Source: an uncultured Bacilli bacterium (GTDB taxonomy: Bacteria; Bacillota_I; Bacilli_A; RF39; UBA660). Taken from it: a stretch of 64,000 bases of DNA. Below the pieces are notes generated by a model. The model was given only the letters and a program-made list of their open reading frames with translations. It was not told the DNA's origin and searched no databases. The stretch spans positions 296,464 to 360,463 of the forward strand of contig CAKOHZ010000002.1 of assembly GCA_934086315.1 (NCBI GenBank), written 5' to 3'. This document shows positions 30,156-32,477 of the stretch, piece after piece; position 1 is the stretch's first letter, and each line of letters opens with the position of its first letter. The translations under genes and the position numbers were made by a program.

Positions 30156-30464
30156 CTAATATAATTTCTTAAATAAATCCATAGCTTCATCTATAGCTTT
30201 ATTTTCACCCTTTAATATCTTTTTAGTAACACATGTCTCCAAATGACTTTTTAAAAGTGTATTACCAAAACTTTGTAATGATTTAGTTATTGCTGATACT
30301 TGTATTAACACATCTTCACATTTACGTTCACTCTCAAGCATTTGTCTAACACCTTTAATTTGCCCTTCAATAACATTAAGTCTCTTTATTAAATCTTGAG
30401 TTTCTTTCTCTGTTCTATGAAATGAATTCATACACATACCACAATTCTTACACTCTTCTCTCAT
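30156..30464 (-). CDS. CsoR/RcnR-family (DUF156) metal/redox-sensing transcriptional repressor with an extra N-terminal Cys cluster
   Basis: 102 aa. The C...H...C triad (KCEDVL...SHLETC) is typical of CsoR. Extra CKNCGMC at the N-terminus. Located 10 bp upstream of sufC. Confidence 0.7.
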   Translation of the reverse strand: MREECKNCGMCMNSFHRTEKETQDLIKRLNVIEGQIKGVRQMLESERKCEDVLIQVSAITKSLQSFGNTLLKSHLETCVTKKILKGENKAIDEAMDLFKKLY

Positions 30465-30480
30465 TCAAATCACCAAAAAT

Positions 30481-30509
30481 ATTATACACCCTGGGGGGGT
30501 CTATGTAAA
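30481..30509 (-). promoter_or_regulatory. predicted sigma-A promoter of the csoR-suf operon with a C7 tract in the spacer
   Basis: Minus strand reads TTTACA (30509..30504), 17-nt spacer containing CCCCCCC (30499..30493), TATAAT (30486..30481), then about 17 nt to the ATG. Confidence 0.45.
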
Positions 30510-30874
30510 GCCTATTTCTAGTTTCATTCAAACTAACATATAATACTTATAGTTTTATCATCTAATCTATCATATTCTTTTATTGATAATAACTCAGTAT
30601 AATAACTTCAAGATAATTTGGTTGCAACTAGCGACCATTTATTATTAAAGAAAAATAAATAAAACTGTCTAATTCTTATTAATGTTCTTTCATCATAATT
30701 TTTACCAGCATCATATAATATTTTGTTATTAATTCATTTTTATTAATTGAATATTCTTTATTTCTAACTATATTTTCTAAATGTCTTTTTGTAAGTCTTC
30801 TCTTCTTCACTTGAACAGCATAATAAATTTCATTTATATCTTTTATTAGTACAAGTATTTACAATGAGTTAATT

Positions 30875-30899
30875 GTGGCACCAATGGTGCCACTTTTTC
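30875..30899 (+). terminator. orphan intrinsic terminator-like hairpin in the intergenic region
   Basis: gtggcacc-aatg-ggtgccac, an 8-bp GC-rich stem followed by TTTTT. No annotated plus-strand gene lies upstream. Confidence 0.4.
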
Positions 30900-31100
30900 A
30901 TTCTTAAACACATTATAAAATTTTCTCATTTTAAATAATTAAAAAATATCTAATTTAAATTAATTAGATATTATAAAATATAAGATTAAAATAAAATTTT
31001 ATAATTAAGATCTAAAAAATAAATAGATTATCGCAAACGAAGACATTCATAAACCTAATTTCATAAGAAAAAACAAACTAAAAAATAAAATATAATAATT

Positions 31101-31129
31101 TTGACATTAATTTTCTTGTATGTTAAATT
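31101..31129 (+). promoter_or_regulatory. predicted promoter of the small hydrophobic peptide gene
   Basis: TTGACA (31101-31106), 17-nt spacer, TAAATT (31124-31129). Confidence 0.45.
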
Positions 31130-31205
31130 ACACTTCGAAGTGCTTGTTTAGGTACCACCTCAAAACCTAAGACTATATATTTTACCCTAATAAGGAGGTG
31201 GTATA

Positions 31206-31298
31206 ATGAAGAAAAAAGATTTGCTAATAGTAGTTCTTTTAGTAATCATTATTTTATTAATCATCTTAGATAATATCTTAGATTATAATAAAACCTAA
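31206..31298 (+). CDS. 30-aa hydrophobic peptide (MKKKDLLIVVLLVIIILLIILDNILDYNKT), candidate type I toxin-like membrane peptide
   Basis: Strong RBS AAGGAGGTG 6 nt upstream of the ATG. Basic N-terminus, 17-residue Leu/Ile/Val core and polar tail. Not in the ORF track because of its length. Confidence 0.45.
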   Translation: MKKKDLLIVVLLVIIILLIILDNILDYNKT

Positions 31299-31359
31299 CT
31301 CACTAGTAGTTAGGCAACCCAAACCGTGGTACCTGACTCATGGGGTCAAGTACTTCACT
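31287..31359 (-). ncRNA. candidate cis-antisense small RNA convergent with the 3' end of the peptide gene
   Basis: Minus-strand promoter TTTACT (31394..31389), 17 nt, TATATT (31371..31366). Minus-strand terminator hairpin cctaact/agttagg (31314..31294) followed by TTTTATT (31293..31287), overlapping the peptide stop codon. Confidence 0.3.
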
Positions 31360-31400
31360 ATCAATAATATAACATAATTTACCCATAAAGTAAATTATTT

Positions 31401-32477
31401 TTATTTTAAACTATAACTATTATTTATAATAGAAGTATTATAAATAAACAAGACATCTTTATTATTAAAATCAATATAATTGCCCAGTATTTTAGGACTC
31501 ATATACCTTGTATCTACTAAAGTAATAGTTTTATATGATGATACTAATAATGGAGCTAAACTACTACCAAAACTATCTCTAAATATTATTAATTCTTTAT
31601 CATTATCACAGAGATTATTATATATTTTTATTAAAGGAGTACTACCACCTAAATACATTTCATATTTATCACTACTTTTAAGCTTATCCATATCATAAAA
31701 ATTTATATAACTACTCTTACTATAATCATAAACTAAACTATTATTAATACTATCATTCTTAATAATATTTAATACATCACTTTCACCACTAATAGGTACT
31801 CTAGACTTATAAACGCCATCAAAACCACTAACATTCTCTACACTATAATTAATATCATTATAATTATTCATACCACTCAATAATCTTGAAGCTACTTTAT
31901 CAATTTTATTAATCATAAAATGACTATCAGTTTTATAATAATCATCTAACTCTAAAGCATTAAAAATATCAATATATCTAAAATTTAACTTACTATACAT
32001 ATAATCTTCTAAATATTGATAATCTATTCTTAAATTATTATCATCTATAAAATAATTCTTATCAGGTATTATTGAATAATAAACATTACTTTCGCTTAAA
32101 TAAGTATCTCTTATATAATTAATTTTATCTATTAAATTATCAACAGAATCCATATTTAATGGATACTCCATCTCGATAAAATAATCATCTTTTATATACA
32201 AATTATGATAATTATTCTTAATACTTAAATCCATCTTAGCTTTTAAAGTCCTAAAGTTATCTCTAAATATAAATTGATCAGTAGTATATTTATCAAACTC
32301 ATTAAAATACGTTCCATTAAACACACTTTTTAAACTAAATTTAGGCATTAATGTAAGTTTACGTCTCTCACTTACTGATACTTCATTATCACTTTTAAAA
32401 ACGTTTAAAACAAAGAATAATAAAAGTACTAATACAAATAATACACTAATAACTATATTTCTATATTTGTTACTCAT
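31401..32477 (-). CDS. DHHW-family protein (partner of MBOAT acyltransferases)
   Basis: N-terminal TM then SERRKLTLMPKF...YFNEFDKYTTDQFIFRDNF, characteristic of DHHW proteins. Sits immediately downstream of the MBOAT gene. Confidence 0.65.
   Translation of the reverse strand: MSNKYRNIVISVLFVLVLLLFFVLNVFKSDNEVSVSERRKLTLMPKFSLKSVFNGTYFNEFDKYTTDQFIFRDNFRTLKAKMDLSIKNNYHNLYIKDDYFIEMEYPLNMDSVDNLIDKINYIRDTYLSESNVYYSIIPDKNYFIDDNNLRIDYQYLEDYMYSKLNFRYIDIFNALELDDYYKTDSHFMINKIDKVASRLLSGMNNYNDINYSVENVSGFDGVYKSRVPISGESDVLNIIKNDSINNSLVYDYSKSSYINFYDMDKLKSSDKYEMYLGGSTPLIKIYNNLCDNDKELIIFRDSFGSSLAPLLVSSYKTITLVDTRYMSPKILGNYIDFNNKDVLFIYNTSIINNSYSLK

What the first reader, a model, noticed from the sequence alone, without database searches (positions are those of the whole stretch)
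31101..31394. Candidate type I toxin-antitoxin-like module: 30-aa hydrophobic peptide with SD-sequestering 5' UTR and convergent antisense sRNA
- A promoter-like TTGACA-17-TAAATT precedes a ~70-nt leader and a strong RBS (AAGGAGGTG).
- The ORF encodes MKKKDLLIVVLLVIIILLIILDNILDYNKT, a basic head, a 17-residue Leu/Ile/Val helix and a polar tail, as in Fst/Ldr/TxpA-type toxins.
- The 5' UTR contains TACCACCTC (31153-31161), perfectly complementary to GAGGTGGTA (31195-31203), which covers the Shine-Dalgarno. This gives a 9-bp SD-sequestering stem.
- The complementary motif GTGGTACC recurs 3' of the ORF (31326-31333).
- On the opposite strand, a TTTACT-17-TATATT promoter (31394..31366) and an intrinsic terminator overlapping the ORF stop codon (stem 31314..31294, T-run 31293..31287) define a ~70-nt antisense RNA convergent with the peptide mRNA. 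That antisense RNA contains GGTACCAC, able to pair with the RBS region.

This is the fst/RNAII-like and txpA/RatA-like layout.
Basis: seen in the sequence. Interest (0 to 1): 0.7.

Follow-up and report, generated by a model that had tools for sequence, protein, structure and literature searches.

The report
New type I toxin-antitoxin-like RNA module
A tiny membrane-peptide gene whose mRNA hides its own ribosome-binding site, paired with a small antisense RNA gene on the opposite strand, is conserved in a group of uncultured gut bacteria; it looks like a new family of a well-known kind of system (type I toxin-antitoxin), though toxicity is untested.

Summary

- **The ORF is translated.** Against the most divergent alignable homologue, 14 of 14 synonymous sites have changed but only 15% of non-synonymous sites. 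Only a 22-aa core is conserved; the "polar tail" comes from a 1-nt deletion specific to this window.
- **The anti-SD:SD helix is maintained.** It is 10 bp and is kept by compensatory changes in two other lineages.
- **The mRNA ends are clamped.** Its first 10 nt pair with a 3' segment that lies inside the antisense RNA gene, also with compensatory changes.
- **The minus-strand RNA looks real.** It is about 75 nt, with a conserved promoter, a hairpin with four compensatory pairs, and wobble pairs that work only on the minus strand.
- **The toxin side decays repeatedly.** In relatives it is eroded by independent deletions or start-codon loss while the sRNA gene persists. The reverse is never seen.

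No known peptide or RNA family matches. The best reading is a new, lineage-restricted type I TA family that works like txpA/RatA and par. Toxicity and transcription are untested. The suggested pairing of the sRNA with the RBS is not supported.

The parts
31101..31129 (+). Toxin-mRNA promoter: TTGACA, 17-nt spacer, TAAATT, with an extended -10 TG at 31121-22. Predicted transcription start about 31137.
   Evidence: Found by the scan. The same -35, 17-nt spacing, TGn and -10 occur in all 5 intact homologues. The scan finds it independently in L031. It is deleted in the decayed loci L003, L004, L030, L024-27 and L033/34.
31137..31146 (+). Element a: the 5'-terminal 10 nt of the mRNA (GAAGUGCUUG). 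It pairs with 31347-31356 to form a 5'-3' clamp.
   Evidence: Present in both the MFE and the centroid fold. 10 of 10 positions pair in every intact homologue. L031 has three double compensatory changes, and a G-U here becomes G-C in L002. On its own it is not significant: 3.5% of shuffles reach it.
31152..31161 (+). Anti-SD (GUACCACCUC). It lies within element b (31150-58), which is also the copy of the 3' arm of the sRNA hairpin.
   Evidence: Forms a 10-bp helix with 31195-31204. The helix is kept as CGUCAUCU:GGAUGAUG in L031, as CUACCUUCA:UGGAGGUAG at the L002 toxin SD, and through a C-to-U change giving G-U in L023.
31192..31204 (+). Shine-Dalgarno AAGGAGGUG plus spacer, sequestered by the anti-SD.
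   Evidence: Seen. The predicted probability that GGAGG is unpaired is 1e-4 to 1e-8 in all five intact homologues.
31206..31298 (+). Small ORF, 30 aa: MKKKDLLIVVLLVIIILLIILDNILDYNKT. The conserved core is the first 22 codons (31206-31271). The last 8 codons are a lineage-specific read-through after a 1-nt deletion.
   Evidence: Listed. Homologues are MRKKDLLIVVLLVIIILLIIFD, MDKKDLLIVILLIIIILLIVFN and, in L031, MRKDKDSIIKTLLDIIMLLIIVILIMTIKKG. Window against L002: pS = 1.00 and pN = 0.15 in frame, and the reverse in the other two frames.
31283..31315 (-). Intrinsic terminator of the sRNA, and of the DHHW/MBOAT operon: stem 31315..31293 and U-run 31292..31283. It overlaps the ORF stop codon.
   Evidence: Found. 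Conserved in 11 or more loci, including L006, which has lost everything else. There is no U-run on the plus side.
31326..31334 (+). Element b' (GUGGUACCU), the inverted copy of 31150-58.
   Evidence: It covaries with element b in L031 (GGACGUCAUC against GAUGACGUCC). The b:b' helix is predicted to be a minority state, with probability 3e-4 to 0.06.
31329..31353 (-). sRNA hairpin 1: 9-bp stem (GUACUUGAC with GUCAGGUAC) and a 7-nt loop.
   Evidence: The helix is 91-100% paired across 11 sequences, with 4 pairs showing double compensatory change. All wobble pairs are G-U on the minus strand: 9 of 9 pairs there in 8 of the 9 variants (8 of 9 in L024) against 6-8 of 9 on the plus strand.
31347..31356 (+). 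Element a' (CAAGUACUUC): the 3' strand of the mRNA 5'-3' clamp. It lies inside the region covered by the sRNA.
31285..31359 (-). Predicted antisense sRNA of about 75 nt, the putative antitoxin. It is fully complementary to the 3' UTR of the peptide mRNA and to the last codons of the 30-aa ORF.
   Evidence: The covariance model built from 11 homologues finds exactly one copy per locus, at E from 1e-20 to 1e-9 (3e-5 for the terminator-only remnant in L006), and none elsewhere in the window.
31366..31394 (-). sRNA promoter: TTTACT, 17-nt spacer, TGn, TATATT. It begins 7 nt after the DHHW stop codon (31401-03).
   Evidence: Found. The hexamers, spacing and TG are conserved in 13 loci across both clades, while the linker downstream of hairpin 1 is free to vary. 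Found independently in L031.
31377..31407 (+). Possible weak plus-strand terminator for the peptide mRNA: ATTTAC-N7-GTAAAT followed by the run TTATTTTTATTTT. It overlaps the sRNA -35.
   Evidence: Read directly from the sequence. The GTAAA inside the sRNA promoter spacer is invariant in 13 loci. This part is inferred only.

Best explanation
This is a two-gene RNA-controlled module of the type I toxin-antitoxin kind, from a family not described before. It is restricted to a narrow clade of uncultured, AT-rich human-gut 'Bacilli'.

**The peptide mRNA.**
- The plus strand makes an mRNA of about 220-270 nt, starting near 31137.
- It encodes a single-helix membrane peptide of 22-31 aa.
- The mRNA is built to be translationally silent.
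- A 10-bp anti-SD:SD helix hides the ribosome-binding site.
- The first 10 nt of the mRNA are clamped to a segment about 210 nt downstream.

**The antisense RNA.**
- The minus strand makes an sRNA of about 75 nt from its own promoter.
- It ends at the terminator it shares with the DHHW/MBOAT operon.
- It is perfectly complementary to the mRNA 3' UTR, including the 3' strand of the clamp.

**Proposed mechanism.**
- Inferred: the sRNA pairs with the 3' UTR, probably starting at the complementary hairpin loops.
- Inferred: the resulting duplex of about 73 bp opens the clamp and marks the mRNA for RNase III and exonuclease decay. The peptide is made only if the sRNA falls short.
- Shown here: the ORF is under coding selection, both RNA structures and both promoters are conserved with covariation, and the toxin side decays repeatedly.
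- Still inferred: transcription, peptide toxicity, the decay mechanism, and how the silent mRNA is ever activated.
For: 1. **Coding selection.** Window against L002: 14 synonymous and 8 mostly conservative non-synonymous changes in 22 codons (pS 1.0, pN 0.15). The other two frames show the opposite pattern.
2. **Anti-SD:SD helix.** It is 10 bp. Only 0.6% of shuffled leaders and 0 of 34 real genes reach 9 nt. It is kept by compensatory changes in L031 and at the L002 toxin SD, and by a wobble in L023. The SD is predicted to be paired in all homologues.
3. **Whole-mRNA fold.** z = -4.68, with the 5'-3' clamp in both MFE and centroid. The clamp is 10 of 10 paired in all intact homologues, with 3 double changes in L031.
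4. **sRNA.** Hairpin 1 has 4 double-compensatory pairs and is 91-100% paired. Its wobbles are valid on the minus strand only. The promoter hexamers, 17-nt spacing and TG are conserved in 13 loci. There is one copy per locus.
5. **Decay series**. Toxin expression is destroyed independently in several lineages:
   - promoter and 5' UTR deletions in L003/L004/L030, L024-27 and L033/34;
   - ATG changed to ATT or TTG;
   - ORF deletion in L003;
   - ORF replaced, leaving only its last 15-20 nt, in L001, L028, L029 and L032.

   The sRNA gene stays intact in all of these. No locus has an intact toxin without the sRNA.
6. **Context.** The module sits at a variable site that carries restriction-modification genes in relatives.
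7. **Match to published descriptors.** Anti-SD, 5' structure, 3' terminator, a 5'-3' long-distance interaction and a 3'-side asRNA in Gram-positives are the descriptors used to define type I loci (PMC8594479).
Against: - No expression or toxicity data exist.
- The peptide has no similarity to any known toxin family, and the RNAs match no Rfam family.
- No additional copies or mobile-element copies were found. There were no hits in phage, plasmid or viral collections, and the only true hit among JGI metagenome contigs duplicates L002. Many type I families are multi-copy.
- The sRNA persists in lineages without the toxin. This is equally expected if the RNA has another job, for example as a 3'-UTR element of the DHHW operon.
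- The mRNA is predicted to be always closed, so it is unclear how the peptide would ever be made.
- Covariation rests on few independent lineages. In effect there is one deep split (L031/L032) plus L002 and point changes.
Confidence: 0.62

Rival explanations
1. The peptide is a non-toxic small membrane protein with tightly repressed translation. The minus-strand element is mainly the structured 3' UTR and terminator region of the DHHW/MBOAT operon, or an sRNA derived from that 3' UTR with other targets. Its antisense overlap with the peptide mRNA is incidental or only modulatory.
For: - The terminator is shared with the operon and survives alone in L006.
- The sRNA region persists where the peptide gene has gone.
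- There is no homology to known toxins.
- The locus is single-copy and chromosomal.
Against: - Hairpin 1 and the promoter are absent from L006 and from all more distant DHHW operons (L007-L015, L035-L041). The operon therefore does not need them.
- Every locus carrying the sRNA also carries the peptide gene or a remnant of its 3' end.
- An independent promoter with conserved -35, TGn and -10 lies just after the stop codon.
- The mRNA 5' end covaries with the sRNA-covered segment, which ties the two genes together.
- Repeated independent knock-outs of peptide expression suggest a dispensable or harmful product rather than a housekeeping one.
Confidence: 0.22
2. The module is a type I TA in which the sRNA acts mainly by blocking translation in trans. 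Its GGUACCAC copy would pair with the RBS region, in the manner of fst/RNAII or SprA1/SprA1AS.
For: - The sRNA carries the same core as the cis anti-SD: UACCAC here and UCAUCA in L031. This core covaries with the SD-proximal sequence.
- par and SprA1 are precedents (PMC7472228, PMC8594479).
Against: - Only 6 bp plus one G-U can form.
- The extension that covers GAGG in the cis anti-SD (CUC) is missing from the sRNA.
- Half of the motif is buried in the hairpin 1 stem.
- Predicted trans duplexes are no better than with shuffled sRNAs, which do as well or better in 20-86% of cases.
- The SD is already occluded in cis.
Confidence: 0.1
3. It is a chance ORF and chance hairpins in an AT-rich intergenic spacer, or a leader peptide for a downstream gene.
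For: - At 26% GC, random ORFs are rich in Ile, Leu, Lys and Asn.
- The number of promoter-like hexamer pairs in the region is no higher than in shuffles: 10 against 10.9.
Against: - The substitution pattern is that of a coding sequence.
- Covariation is seen in three helices.
- Fold z = -4.68.
- The elements are conserved across loci whose flanking protein is only 72-73% identical.
- There is no co-directional downstream gene. The next gene is convergent.
Confidence: 0.03

Closest known systems
Bacillus subtilis txpA/RatA, bsrG/SR4 and bsrE/SR5 (type I TA with 3'-overlapping antitoxins)
   Same: - Convergent genes.
[quoted passage not shown]
- The toxin is a hydrophobic single-TM peptide of under 60 aa.
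- The RBS is sequestered in cis by a GC-rich helix.
- The expected mode of action is duplex-triggered RNase III decay (PMC6562991, PMC3834814).
   Different: - The overlap is about 73 nt and the sRNA about 75 nt, against 100-140 bp and 160-220 nt.
- The anti-SD helix is 10 bp, against 4-5 GC pairs.
- The sRNA lies wholly inside the mRNA 3' UTR and covers one strand of a 5'-3' clamp.
- There is no peptide or RNA sequence homology.
- The module is not on a prophage.
Enterococcus faecalis par (fst/RNA II) and the Fst/Ldr family
   Same: - Convergent promoters.
- The sRNA ends at a terminator hairpin located at the end of the toxin ORF.
- A 5' stem-loop sequesters the SD.
- A helix sequesters the extreme 5' end of the toxin mRNA, as the 5'-UH does.
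- Repeated sequence elements are shared by the 5' parts of both RNAs.
- The peptide has charged N-terminal residues followed by an Ile/Leu/Val helix (PMC7472228).
   Different: - The repeats are inverted rather than direct, so the sRNA is a look-alike of the 5' UTR and not its complement.
- The terminator has a U-run on one side only.
- The partner of the 5' end lies in the 3' UTR.
- The peptide has no PXXXG motif, no conserved Trp and no charged C-terminal tail.
- There is no Pfam Fst hit.
hok/Sok and aapA1/IsoA1 (Gram-negative type I TA with 5'-3' long-distance interaction)
   Same: The full-length toxin mRNA is locked by pairing of its 5' and 3' ends and is translationally inert (PMC8594479, PMC5416894, PMC6733600).
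   Different: - In those systems the antisense RNA targets the 5' or ORF region of a 3'-processed mRNA.
- Here the antisense RNA targets the 3' clamp strand itself.
- No processing signal is evident here.
- The host is a Gram-positive-type lineage.
Ibs/Sib (E. coli)
   Same: The toxin is very short, 18-19 aa, and almost purely hydrophobic. This is comparable to the 22-aa core here. (The Ibs size is stated from my own knowledge.)
   Different: Sib covers the whole ibs ORF. There is no homology.

Membership tests
Type I toxin-antitoxin systems (generic) | Small ORF (usually under 60 aa), typically hydrophobic, that is really translated. | tested here: met
   ORFs of 22-31 aa with a single Leu/Ile/Val helix. 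pS = 1.0 and pN = 0.15 in frame only. Strong SD at 7-nt spacing.
Type I toxin-antitoxin systems (generic) | An antisense RNA gene with its own promoter and terminator, complementary to the toxin mRNA. | tested here: met
   Conserved promoter. Hairpin with 4 compensatory pairs and strand-specific wobbles. Terminator present. One copy per locus. Met at sequence level only; transcription itself was not tested.
Type I toxin-antitoxin systems (generic) | Cis elements that keep the toxin mRNA untranslated: anti-SD, 5' structure, 5'-3' long-distance interaction (PMC8594479). | tested here: met
   10-bp anti-SD:SD helix with covariation, and a 10-bp 5'-3' clamp.
Type I toxin-antitoxin systems (generic) | The peptide is toxic when expressed, and the RNA neutralises it. 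| not testable with these tools
   There is only indirect support: repeated independent inactivation of the toxin side with the sRNA retained, and no intact toxin without the sRNA.
Fst/RNA II (par) family | Fst/Ldr peptide signature: PXXXG in the TM helix, a Trp after the helix, and a charged C-terminal tail (PMC7472228). | tested here: not met
   None of these residues is present in any of the 4 peptide variants. No Pfam or NCBIfam hit at E up to 10.
Fst/RNA II (par) family | Direct repeats (DRa/DRb) transcribed in opposite directions, giving sRNA complementarity to the translation start region. | tested here: not met
   The repeats are inverted (31137-58 against 31326-56), so the sRNA equals the 5' UTR rather than complementing it. 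sRNA-RBS pairing is no better than with shuffled sRNAs.
Fst/RNA II (par) family | Bidirectional intrinsic terminator shared by both RNAs. | tested here: not met
   The U-run is on the minus side only. The plus strand continues GGCAACCC. The clamp partner lies beyond the hairpin, so the mRNA must read through it.
TxpA/RatA and BsrG/E/H families | [quoted passage not shown] | tested here: met
   The predicted sRNA (31359..31285) lies inside the mRNA 3' UTR and overlaps the last codons.
TxpA/RatA and BsrG/E/H families | Sequence homology of the toxin or antitoxin to family members (Rfam RatA and others; peptide families), and an sRNA of 160-220 nt with 100-140 bp of overlap (PMC6562991). | tested here: not met
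   No Rfam match at E up to 10 in the locus, and none at gathering score in the window. No peptide family hit. The sRNA is about 75 nt with about 73 nt of overlap.
Hok/Sok-type regulation | A 5'-3' fold-back that keeps the full-length mRNA inert, with activation by 3' processing. | tested here: inconclusive
   The fold-back is present and covaries. Processing and activation cannot be assessed. The antisense target site differs.

The most novel reading that the evidence does not exclude
The antitoxin is a molecular look-alike of the toxin mRNA's own 5' end, because the two are an inverted duplication that co-evolves. It would work by strand displacement. The sRNA competes with the mRNA 5' terminus for the 3' clamp segment, unclamps the mRNA, and exposes its 5' end to 5'-3' decay. 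The conserved 6-nt palindrome at the core of the repeat is GGUACC here and GACGUC in the L031/L032 clade, kept by two compensatory double changes. It would provide a kissing contact between the sRNA and the anti-SD element. This would be an antitoxin mechanism not described for any type I family.
Probability: 0.15. Interest if true: 0.65.

Novelty: new member of a known kind. Interest (0 to 1): 0.42.

Why it matters
- It would add a type I TA family from a gut lineage known only from metagenome-assembled genomes, where no such systems have been characterised. Its toxin core is among the shortest known, at 22 aa.
- The set of relatives forms a natural decay series of promoter loss, start-codon loss and ORF deletion, always with the sRNA retained. 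It shows how such modules erode.
- The mRNA combines a strong local anti-SD helix with a 5'-3' clamp whose 3' strand is the antitoxin's target. That makes it a compact, testable model of how 3'-binding antitoxins can affect mRNA fate.
- It also illustrates that gene callers miss these genes: no gene was called for this ORF in any assembly.

Tried and rejected
1. **Toggle hypothesis.** I proposed that the 5' UTR element switches between the SD (off) and the 3' copy b' (on), and that the sRNA forces the off state, as with bsrG/SR4. Folding does not support this.
   - The b:b' state has probability 3e-4 to 0.06, and 6e-6 in L023.
   - The SD stays paired even in that state.
   - Blocking the 3' region changes the probability that the SD is free by at most about 40-fold, in either direction, and it never rises above 4e-4.
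2. **sRNA-RBS trans pairing.** Not better than with shuffled sRNAs.
3. **Known RNA families.** No meaningful Rfam match. The only hits at E up to 10 are two sub-threshold miRNA models, which are chance matches to hairpins.
4. **Known peptide or defence families.** Pfam, NCBIfam and PADLOC give only sub-threshold transmembrane-like noise.
5. **Peptide homology search.** The exact peptide is not on record as a called gene. The peptide string appears in no paper.
6. **Wider distribution.**
   - A JGI metagenome scan with an 18-nt 5'-UTR motif gave one true hit, a duplicate of L002, plus 6 chance hits in coding sequence.
   - Phage and plasmid collections and IMG/VR gave nothing.
   - More distant DHHW operons, at 61% identity or less, lack the module.
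7. **Alignment of the full mRNAs.** MAFFT misplaced the divergent L031 5' region, so those helices were tabulated by hand-anchored strands instead.
8. **Minus-strand 27-aa ORF at 31303-31386.** It has no SD and lies across stem and loop indels, so it was dismissed.
Full report

- The plus-strand promoter is TTGACA (31101-06), a 17-nt spacer and TAAATT (31124-29), with an extended -10 TG.
- The SD AAGGAGGTG lies 7 nt upstream of ATG 31206.
- The 30-codon ORF ends at TAA 31296-98.
- TACCACCTC (31153-61) faces GAGGTGGTA (31195-203).
- GTGGTACC lies at 31326-33.
- The minus strand has TTTACT, a 17-nt spacer and TATATT (31394..31366), and a terminator (stem 31315..31293 plus a T-run).

The window is 26% GC, so hydrophobic AT-rich ORFs and promoter-like hexamers are cheap. 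The scan found 10 promoter-like sites against 10.9 expected.

The specific combination is not cheap.
- GTGGTACC and its complement are the only two copies in 64 kb, against 0.23 expected.
- A perfect complement of 9 nt or more to the RBS occurs in 0.6% of dinucleotide-shuffled leaders. It occurs upstream of 0 of 34 SD-bearing genes of the window.
- This is the only strong-SD, highly hydrophobic mini-ORF in the window.
- The RNA 31137-31358 folds with z = -4.68; 0 of 200 shuffles do as well.

**2. Surroundings**

The locus lies in a 0.9-kb spacer between two minus-strand operons.
- To the left is a CsoR-like repressor followed by SufC, SufD and SufS, starting at 30464.
- To the right is an MBOAT gene followed by a DHHW (PF14286) gene, ending at 31401.

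There is no co-directional gene downstream of the small ORF, so a leader-peptide role is excluded.

**3. Relatives**

The flanking DHHW protein retrieved syntenic loci. All come from uncultured human-gut "Bacilli" or "Clostridium sp. CAG" MAGs and assemblies. The module is present only where DHHW is at least 72% identical. It is absent at 61% identity or less.

No copy was found in phage, plasmid or IMG/VR collections. The JGI metagenome scan gave only a duplicate of L002. The family is narrow, chromosomal and single-copy.

**4. The ORF is a real gene**

Homologous ORFs are:
- MRKKDLLIVVLLVIIILLIIFD (L005);
- MKKKDLLIVVLLVIIILLIIFD (L024-27);
- MDKKDLLIVILLIIIILLIVFN (L002, L019);
- MRKDKDSIIKTLLDIIMLLIIVILIMTIKKG in the deepest branch, L031.

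Window against L002 differs at 22 of 66 nt. Of these, 14 are synonymous (pS = 1.0) and 8 are mostly Ile/Val/Leu/Phe exchanges (pN = 0.15). In the other two frames pS falls to 0.41 and 0.04 while pN rises to 0.28 and 0.40.

The L031 peptide has no BLASTP similarity to the window peptide. It keeps the same plan: a charged head, an aliphatic helix of about 17 residues, and a short polar end.

The conserved form is 22 aa. The tail NILDYNKT in the window and in L023 results from loss of one T (GATTAATATC became GATAATATC), which removes the ancestral TAA. The "polar tail" is therefore not a family feature.

**5. The mRNA is built to be silent**

With the 5' end predicted from the promoter (about 31137), both the MFE and the centroid of 31137-31358 contain two helices.
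- GUACCACCUC (31152-61) pairs with GAGGUGGUAU (31195-204).
- The first ten nucleotides, GAAGUGCUUG (31137-46), pair with CAAGUACUUC (31347-56).

The anti-SD:SD helix is maintained with different sequences.
- In L031 it is CGUCAUCU with GGAUGAUG.
- At the L002 toxin SD it is CUACCUUCA with UGGAGGUAG.
- In L023 a C-to-U change gives a G-U pair.

The clamp is 10 of 10 paired in all five intact homologues. L031 has three double changes (GAAGCGUUUA with UAAACGCUUC), and a G-U in the window becomes G-C in L002. The clamp alone would not be significant, since 3.5% of shuffles reach it. The covariation is what supports it.

The predicted probability of a free SD is 1e-4 to 1e-8 in every homologue.

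All five intact loci keep TTGACA, a 17-nt spacer, TGn and a -10 hexamer. The scan finds this promoter independently in L031.

**6. The minus-strand sRNA**

From the conserved promoter the RNA would start near 31359 and end at the U-run near 31285, a length of about 75 nt.
- The promoter hexamers, the 17-nt spacing and the TG are conserved in 13 loci.
- Hairpin 1 (31353..31329) is 91-100% paired in 11 sequences and has four pairs with changes on both sides.
- Every non-Watson-Crick pair is a G-U on the minus strand. Counting pairs gives 9 of 9 on the minus strand in eight of the nine variants and 8 of 9 in L024, against 6-8 of 9 on the plus strand. The structure is therefore selected in the minus-strand transcript.
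- The linker between hairpin 1 and the terminator varies freely, as expected for an unpaired spacer.
- A covariance model finds exactly one copy per locus and nothing else in the window.

The terminator also serves the DHHW operon. In L006 it follows the gene directly and is all that remains. Read-through or processing of the operon transcript could therefore add to the sRNA pool.

**7. The two genes are linked**

The 5' UTR (elements a and b, 31137-58) is an inverted copy of the two arms of hairpin 1 (b' and a', 31326-56). Both copies changed together between the window clade and the L031/L032 clade. Antisense overlap cannot explain this, because it is complementary by construction. The two genes must therefore be linked by a functional constraint, or possibly by gene conversion.

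Every locus with the sRNA also has the toxin gene or a 15-20-nt remnant of its 3' end next to the terminator.

**8. Decay series**

Toxin expression has been destroyed several times independently.
- **L003, L004, L030:** a deletion runs from an upstream terminator hairpin into the anti-SD, at the microhomology GGTGCCAC/GGTACCAC.
  - L004 and L030 also have ATG changed to ATT.
  - L003 also has a deletion of the ORF.
- **L024-27:** a different deletion removes the promoter and 5' UTR.
- **L033/34:** loss of the -10 and 5' end, ATG changed to TTG, and an internal deletion.
- **L001, L028, L029, L032:** the ORF is replaced by restriction-modification genes.

In all of these the sRNA promoter and hairpin 1 survive. 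No locus has an intact toxin gene without the sRNA. L006 has lost both.

This asymmetry is what a toxin-antitoxin pair predicts. The numbers are small, and it is also compatible with a second function for the sRNA.

**9. Mechanism**

*Best-supported model.*
- The sRNA pairs with the 3' UTR over about 73 nt.
- The complementary hairpin loops are the likely first contacts. The terminator loops of both RNAs contain CUAG, which fits YUNR; this is inferred.
- Pairing disrupts the clamp and creates a long duplex for RNase III. This resembles RatA and SR5, which act through degradation (PMC6562991).

*Toggle model, tested and rejected.* I tested whether the sRNA would also switch the RBS, as SR4 does (PMC3834814). 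Folding says no. The SD is occluded with or without the 3' region. The alternative b:b' helix is a minority state in which the SD is still paired.

*Open question.* How the closed mRNA is ever activated is unknown. The same was long true of hok, aapA1 and dinQ (PMC8594479, PMC5066626).

**10. Comparison with known systems**

The module works like the Gram-positive type I systems with 3'-side antitoxins, and it shares several regulatory devices with par (PMC7472228). The shared devices are a stem-loop that sequesters the SD, a helix that hides the extreme 5' end, and convergent promoters.

It is not a member of any of these families.
- No Rfam antitoxin family matches.
- No Pfam, NCBIfam or PADLOC hit was found.
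- There is no PXXXG, Trp or charged-tail signature.
- The repeats are inverted, not direct.
- The terminator is one-sided.
- The sRNA and the overlap are about half the size of those in B. subtilis.

**11. Verdict**

This is a real, conserved module of two RNAs and one peptide. [quoted passage not shown] The main rival, at about 0.2, is a non-toxic small membrane protein next to an operon 3'-UTR RNA.

The novelty class is a new member of a known kind. Interest is moderate. The kind is well known and new families appear regularly. The decay series and the clamp-targeting antisense RNA make it a good small model, and the host lineage is uncharted for such systems.

Noticed in passing
window 31152-31157 and 31328-31333; L031 3678-3845 (minus strand): The core of the repeated element is a 6-nt palindrome in both clades: GGTACC here and GACGTC in L031/L032, at the same alignment columns (38-43 of A1). 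It is kept palindromic by two compensatory double changes. None of the helices I propose requires this. It would let the sRNA copy and the 5'-UTR copy pair with each other over 6 bp. Unexplained.
   Followed up: partly
L002 7150-7411 (minus strand); also L019, with decayed copies in L033/L034: This lineage has an extra 21-codon upstream ORF (MTNHLLKFLDHKTTFNFNGGS) with its own SD locked in an 11-bp hairpin. Its stop overlaps the toxin start (TAATG), and it runs through the toxin's anti-SD hairpin. This suggests mok/hok-like translational coupling.
   Followed up: partly
window 31377-31407: The inverted repeat ATTTAC-N7-GTAAAT overlaps the sRNA -35 and spacer. It is followed on the plus strand by a T-run that is the reverse complement of the last DHHW codons and stop. 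The GTAAA in the promoter spacer is invariant in 13 loci. It may be a weak terminator for the peptide mRNA or a regulator binding site.
   Followed up: partly
window 30500-31100, compared with L024, L028, L029, L031, L032 and L033: The spacer is an insertion hotspot. Relatives carry different cargo between the module and csoR.
- L028, L029 and L031 carry a D12-class methyltransferase gene; in L031 it is followed by a DpnII-family gene.
- L032 carries MutH-like and Dcm-type methylase genes.
- L033/34 carry a gene for a 644-aa protein.

The window keeps only a 43-aa fragment (30679-30810, minus strand) of a 62-aa ORF that is intact in L024-27. The match is 86% over 21 aa, and neither ORF has a Pfam family.
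   Followed up: partly
window 30619-30637 and 30875-30893 (plus strand): There are two plus-strand terminator-like hairpins with T-runs and no obvious plus-strand gene upstream. The second (GTGGCACC-AAT-GGTGCCAC) is the left breakpoint of the deletion that removed the toxin promoter in L003, L004 and L030. The breakpoint lies at microhomology with GGTACCAC.
   Followed up: no
window 30465-30510 (minus-strand promoter of the csoR-suf operon): The best sigma-70-like promoter of the region (TTTACA, 17-nt spacer, TATAAT; 11 of 12 matches) sits next to a GC-rich palindrome (ACACCCTAGGGGGGT in relatives). This is probably the CsoR operator. A CsoR-family repressor heading a SufCDS operon is an unusual pairing.
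   Followed up: no
L005 759-984 (minus strand), just upstream of the SD: L005 has a second local SD-complementary stretch, CUUCCU, 3 nt upstream of AGGAGG. It is predicted to take over SD pairing when the main anti-SD is engaged elsewhere. This looks like redundancy in SD occlusion.
   Followed up: no
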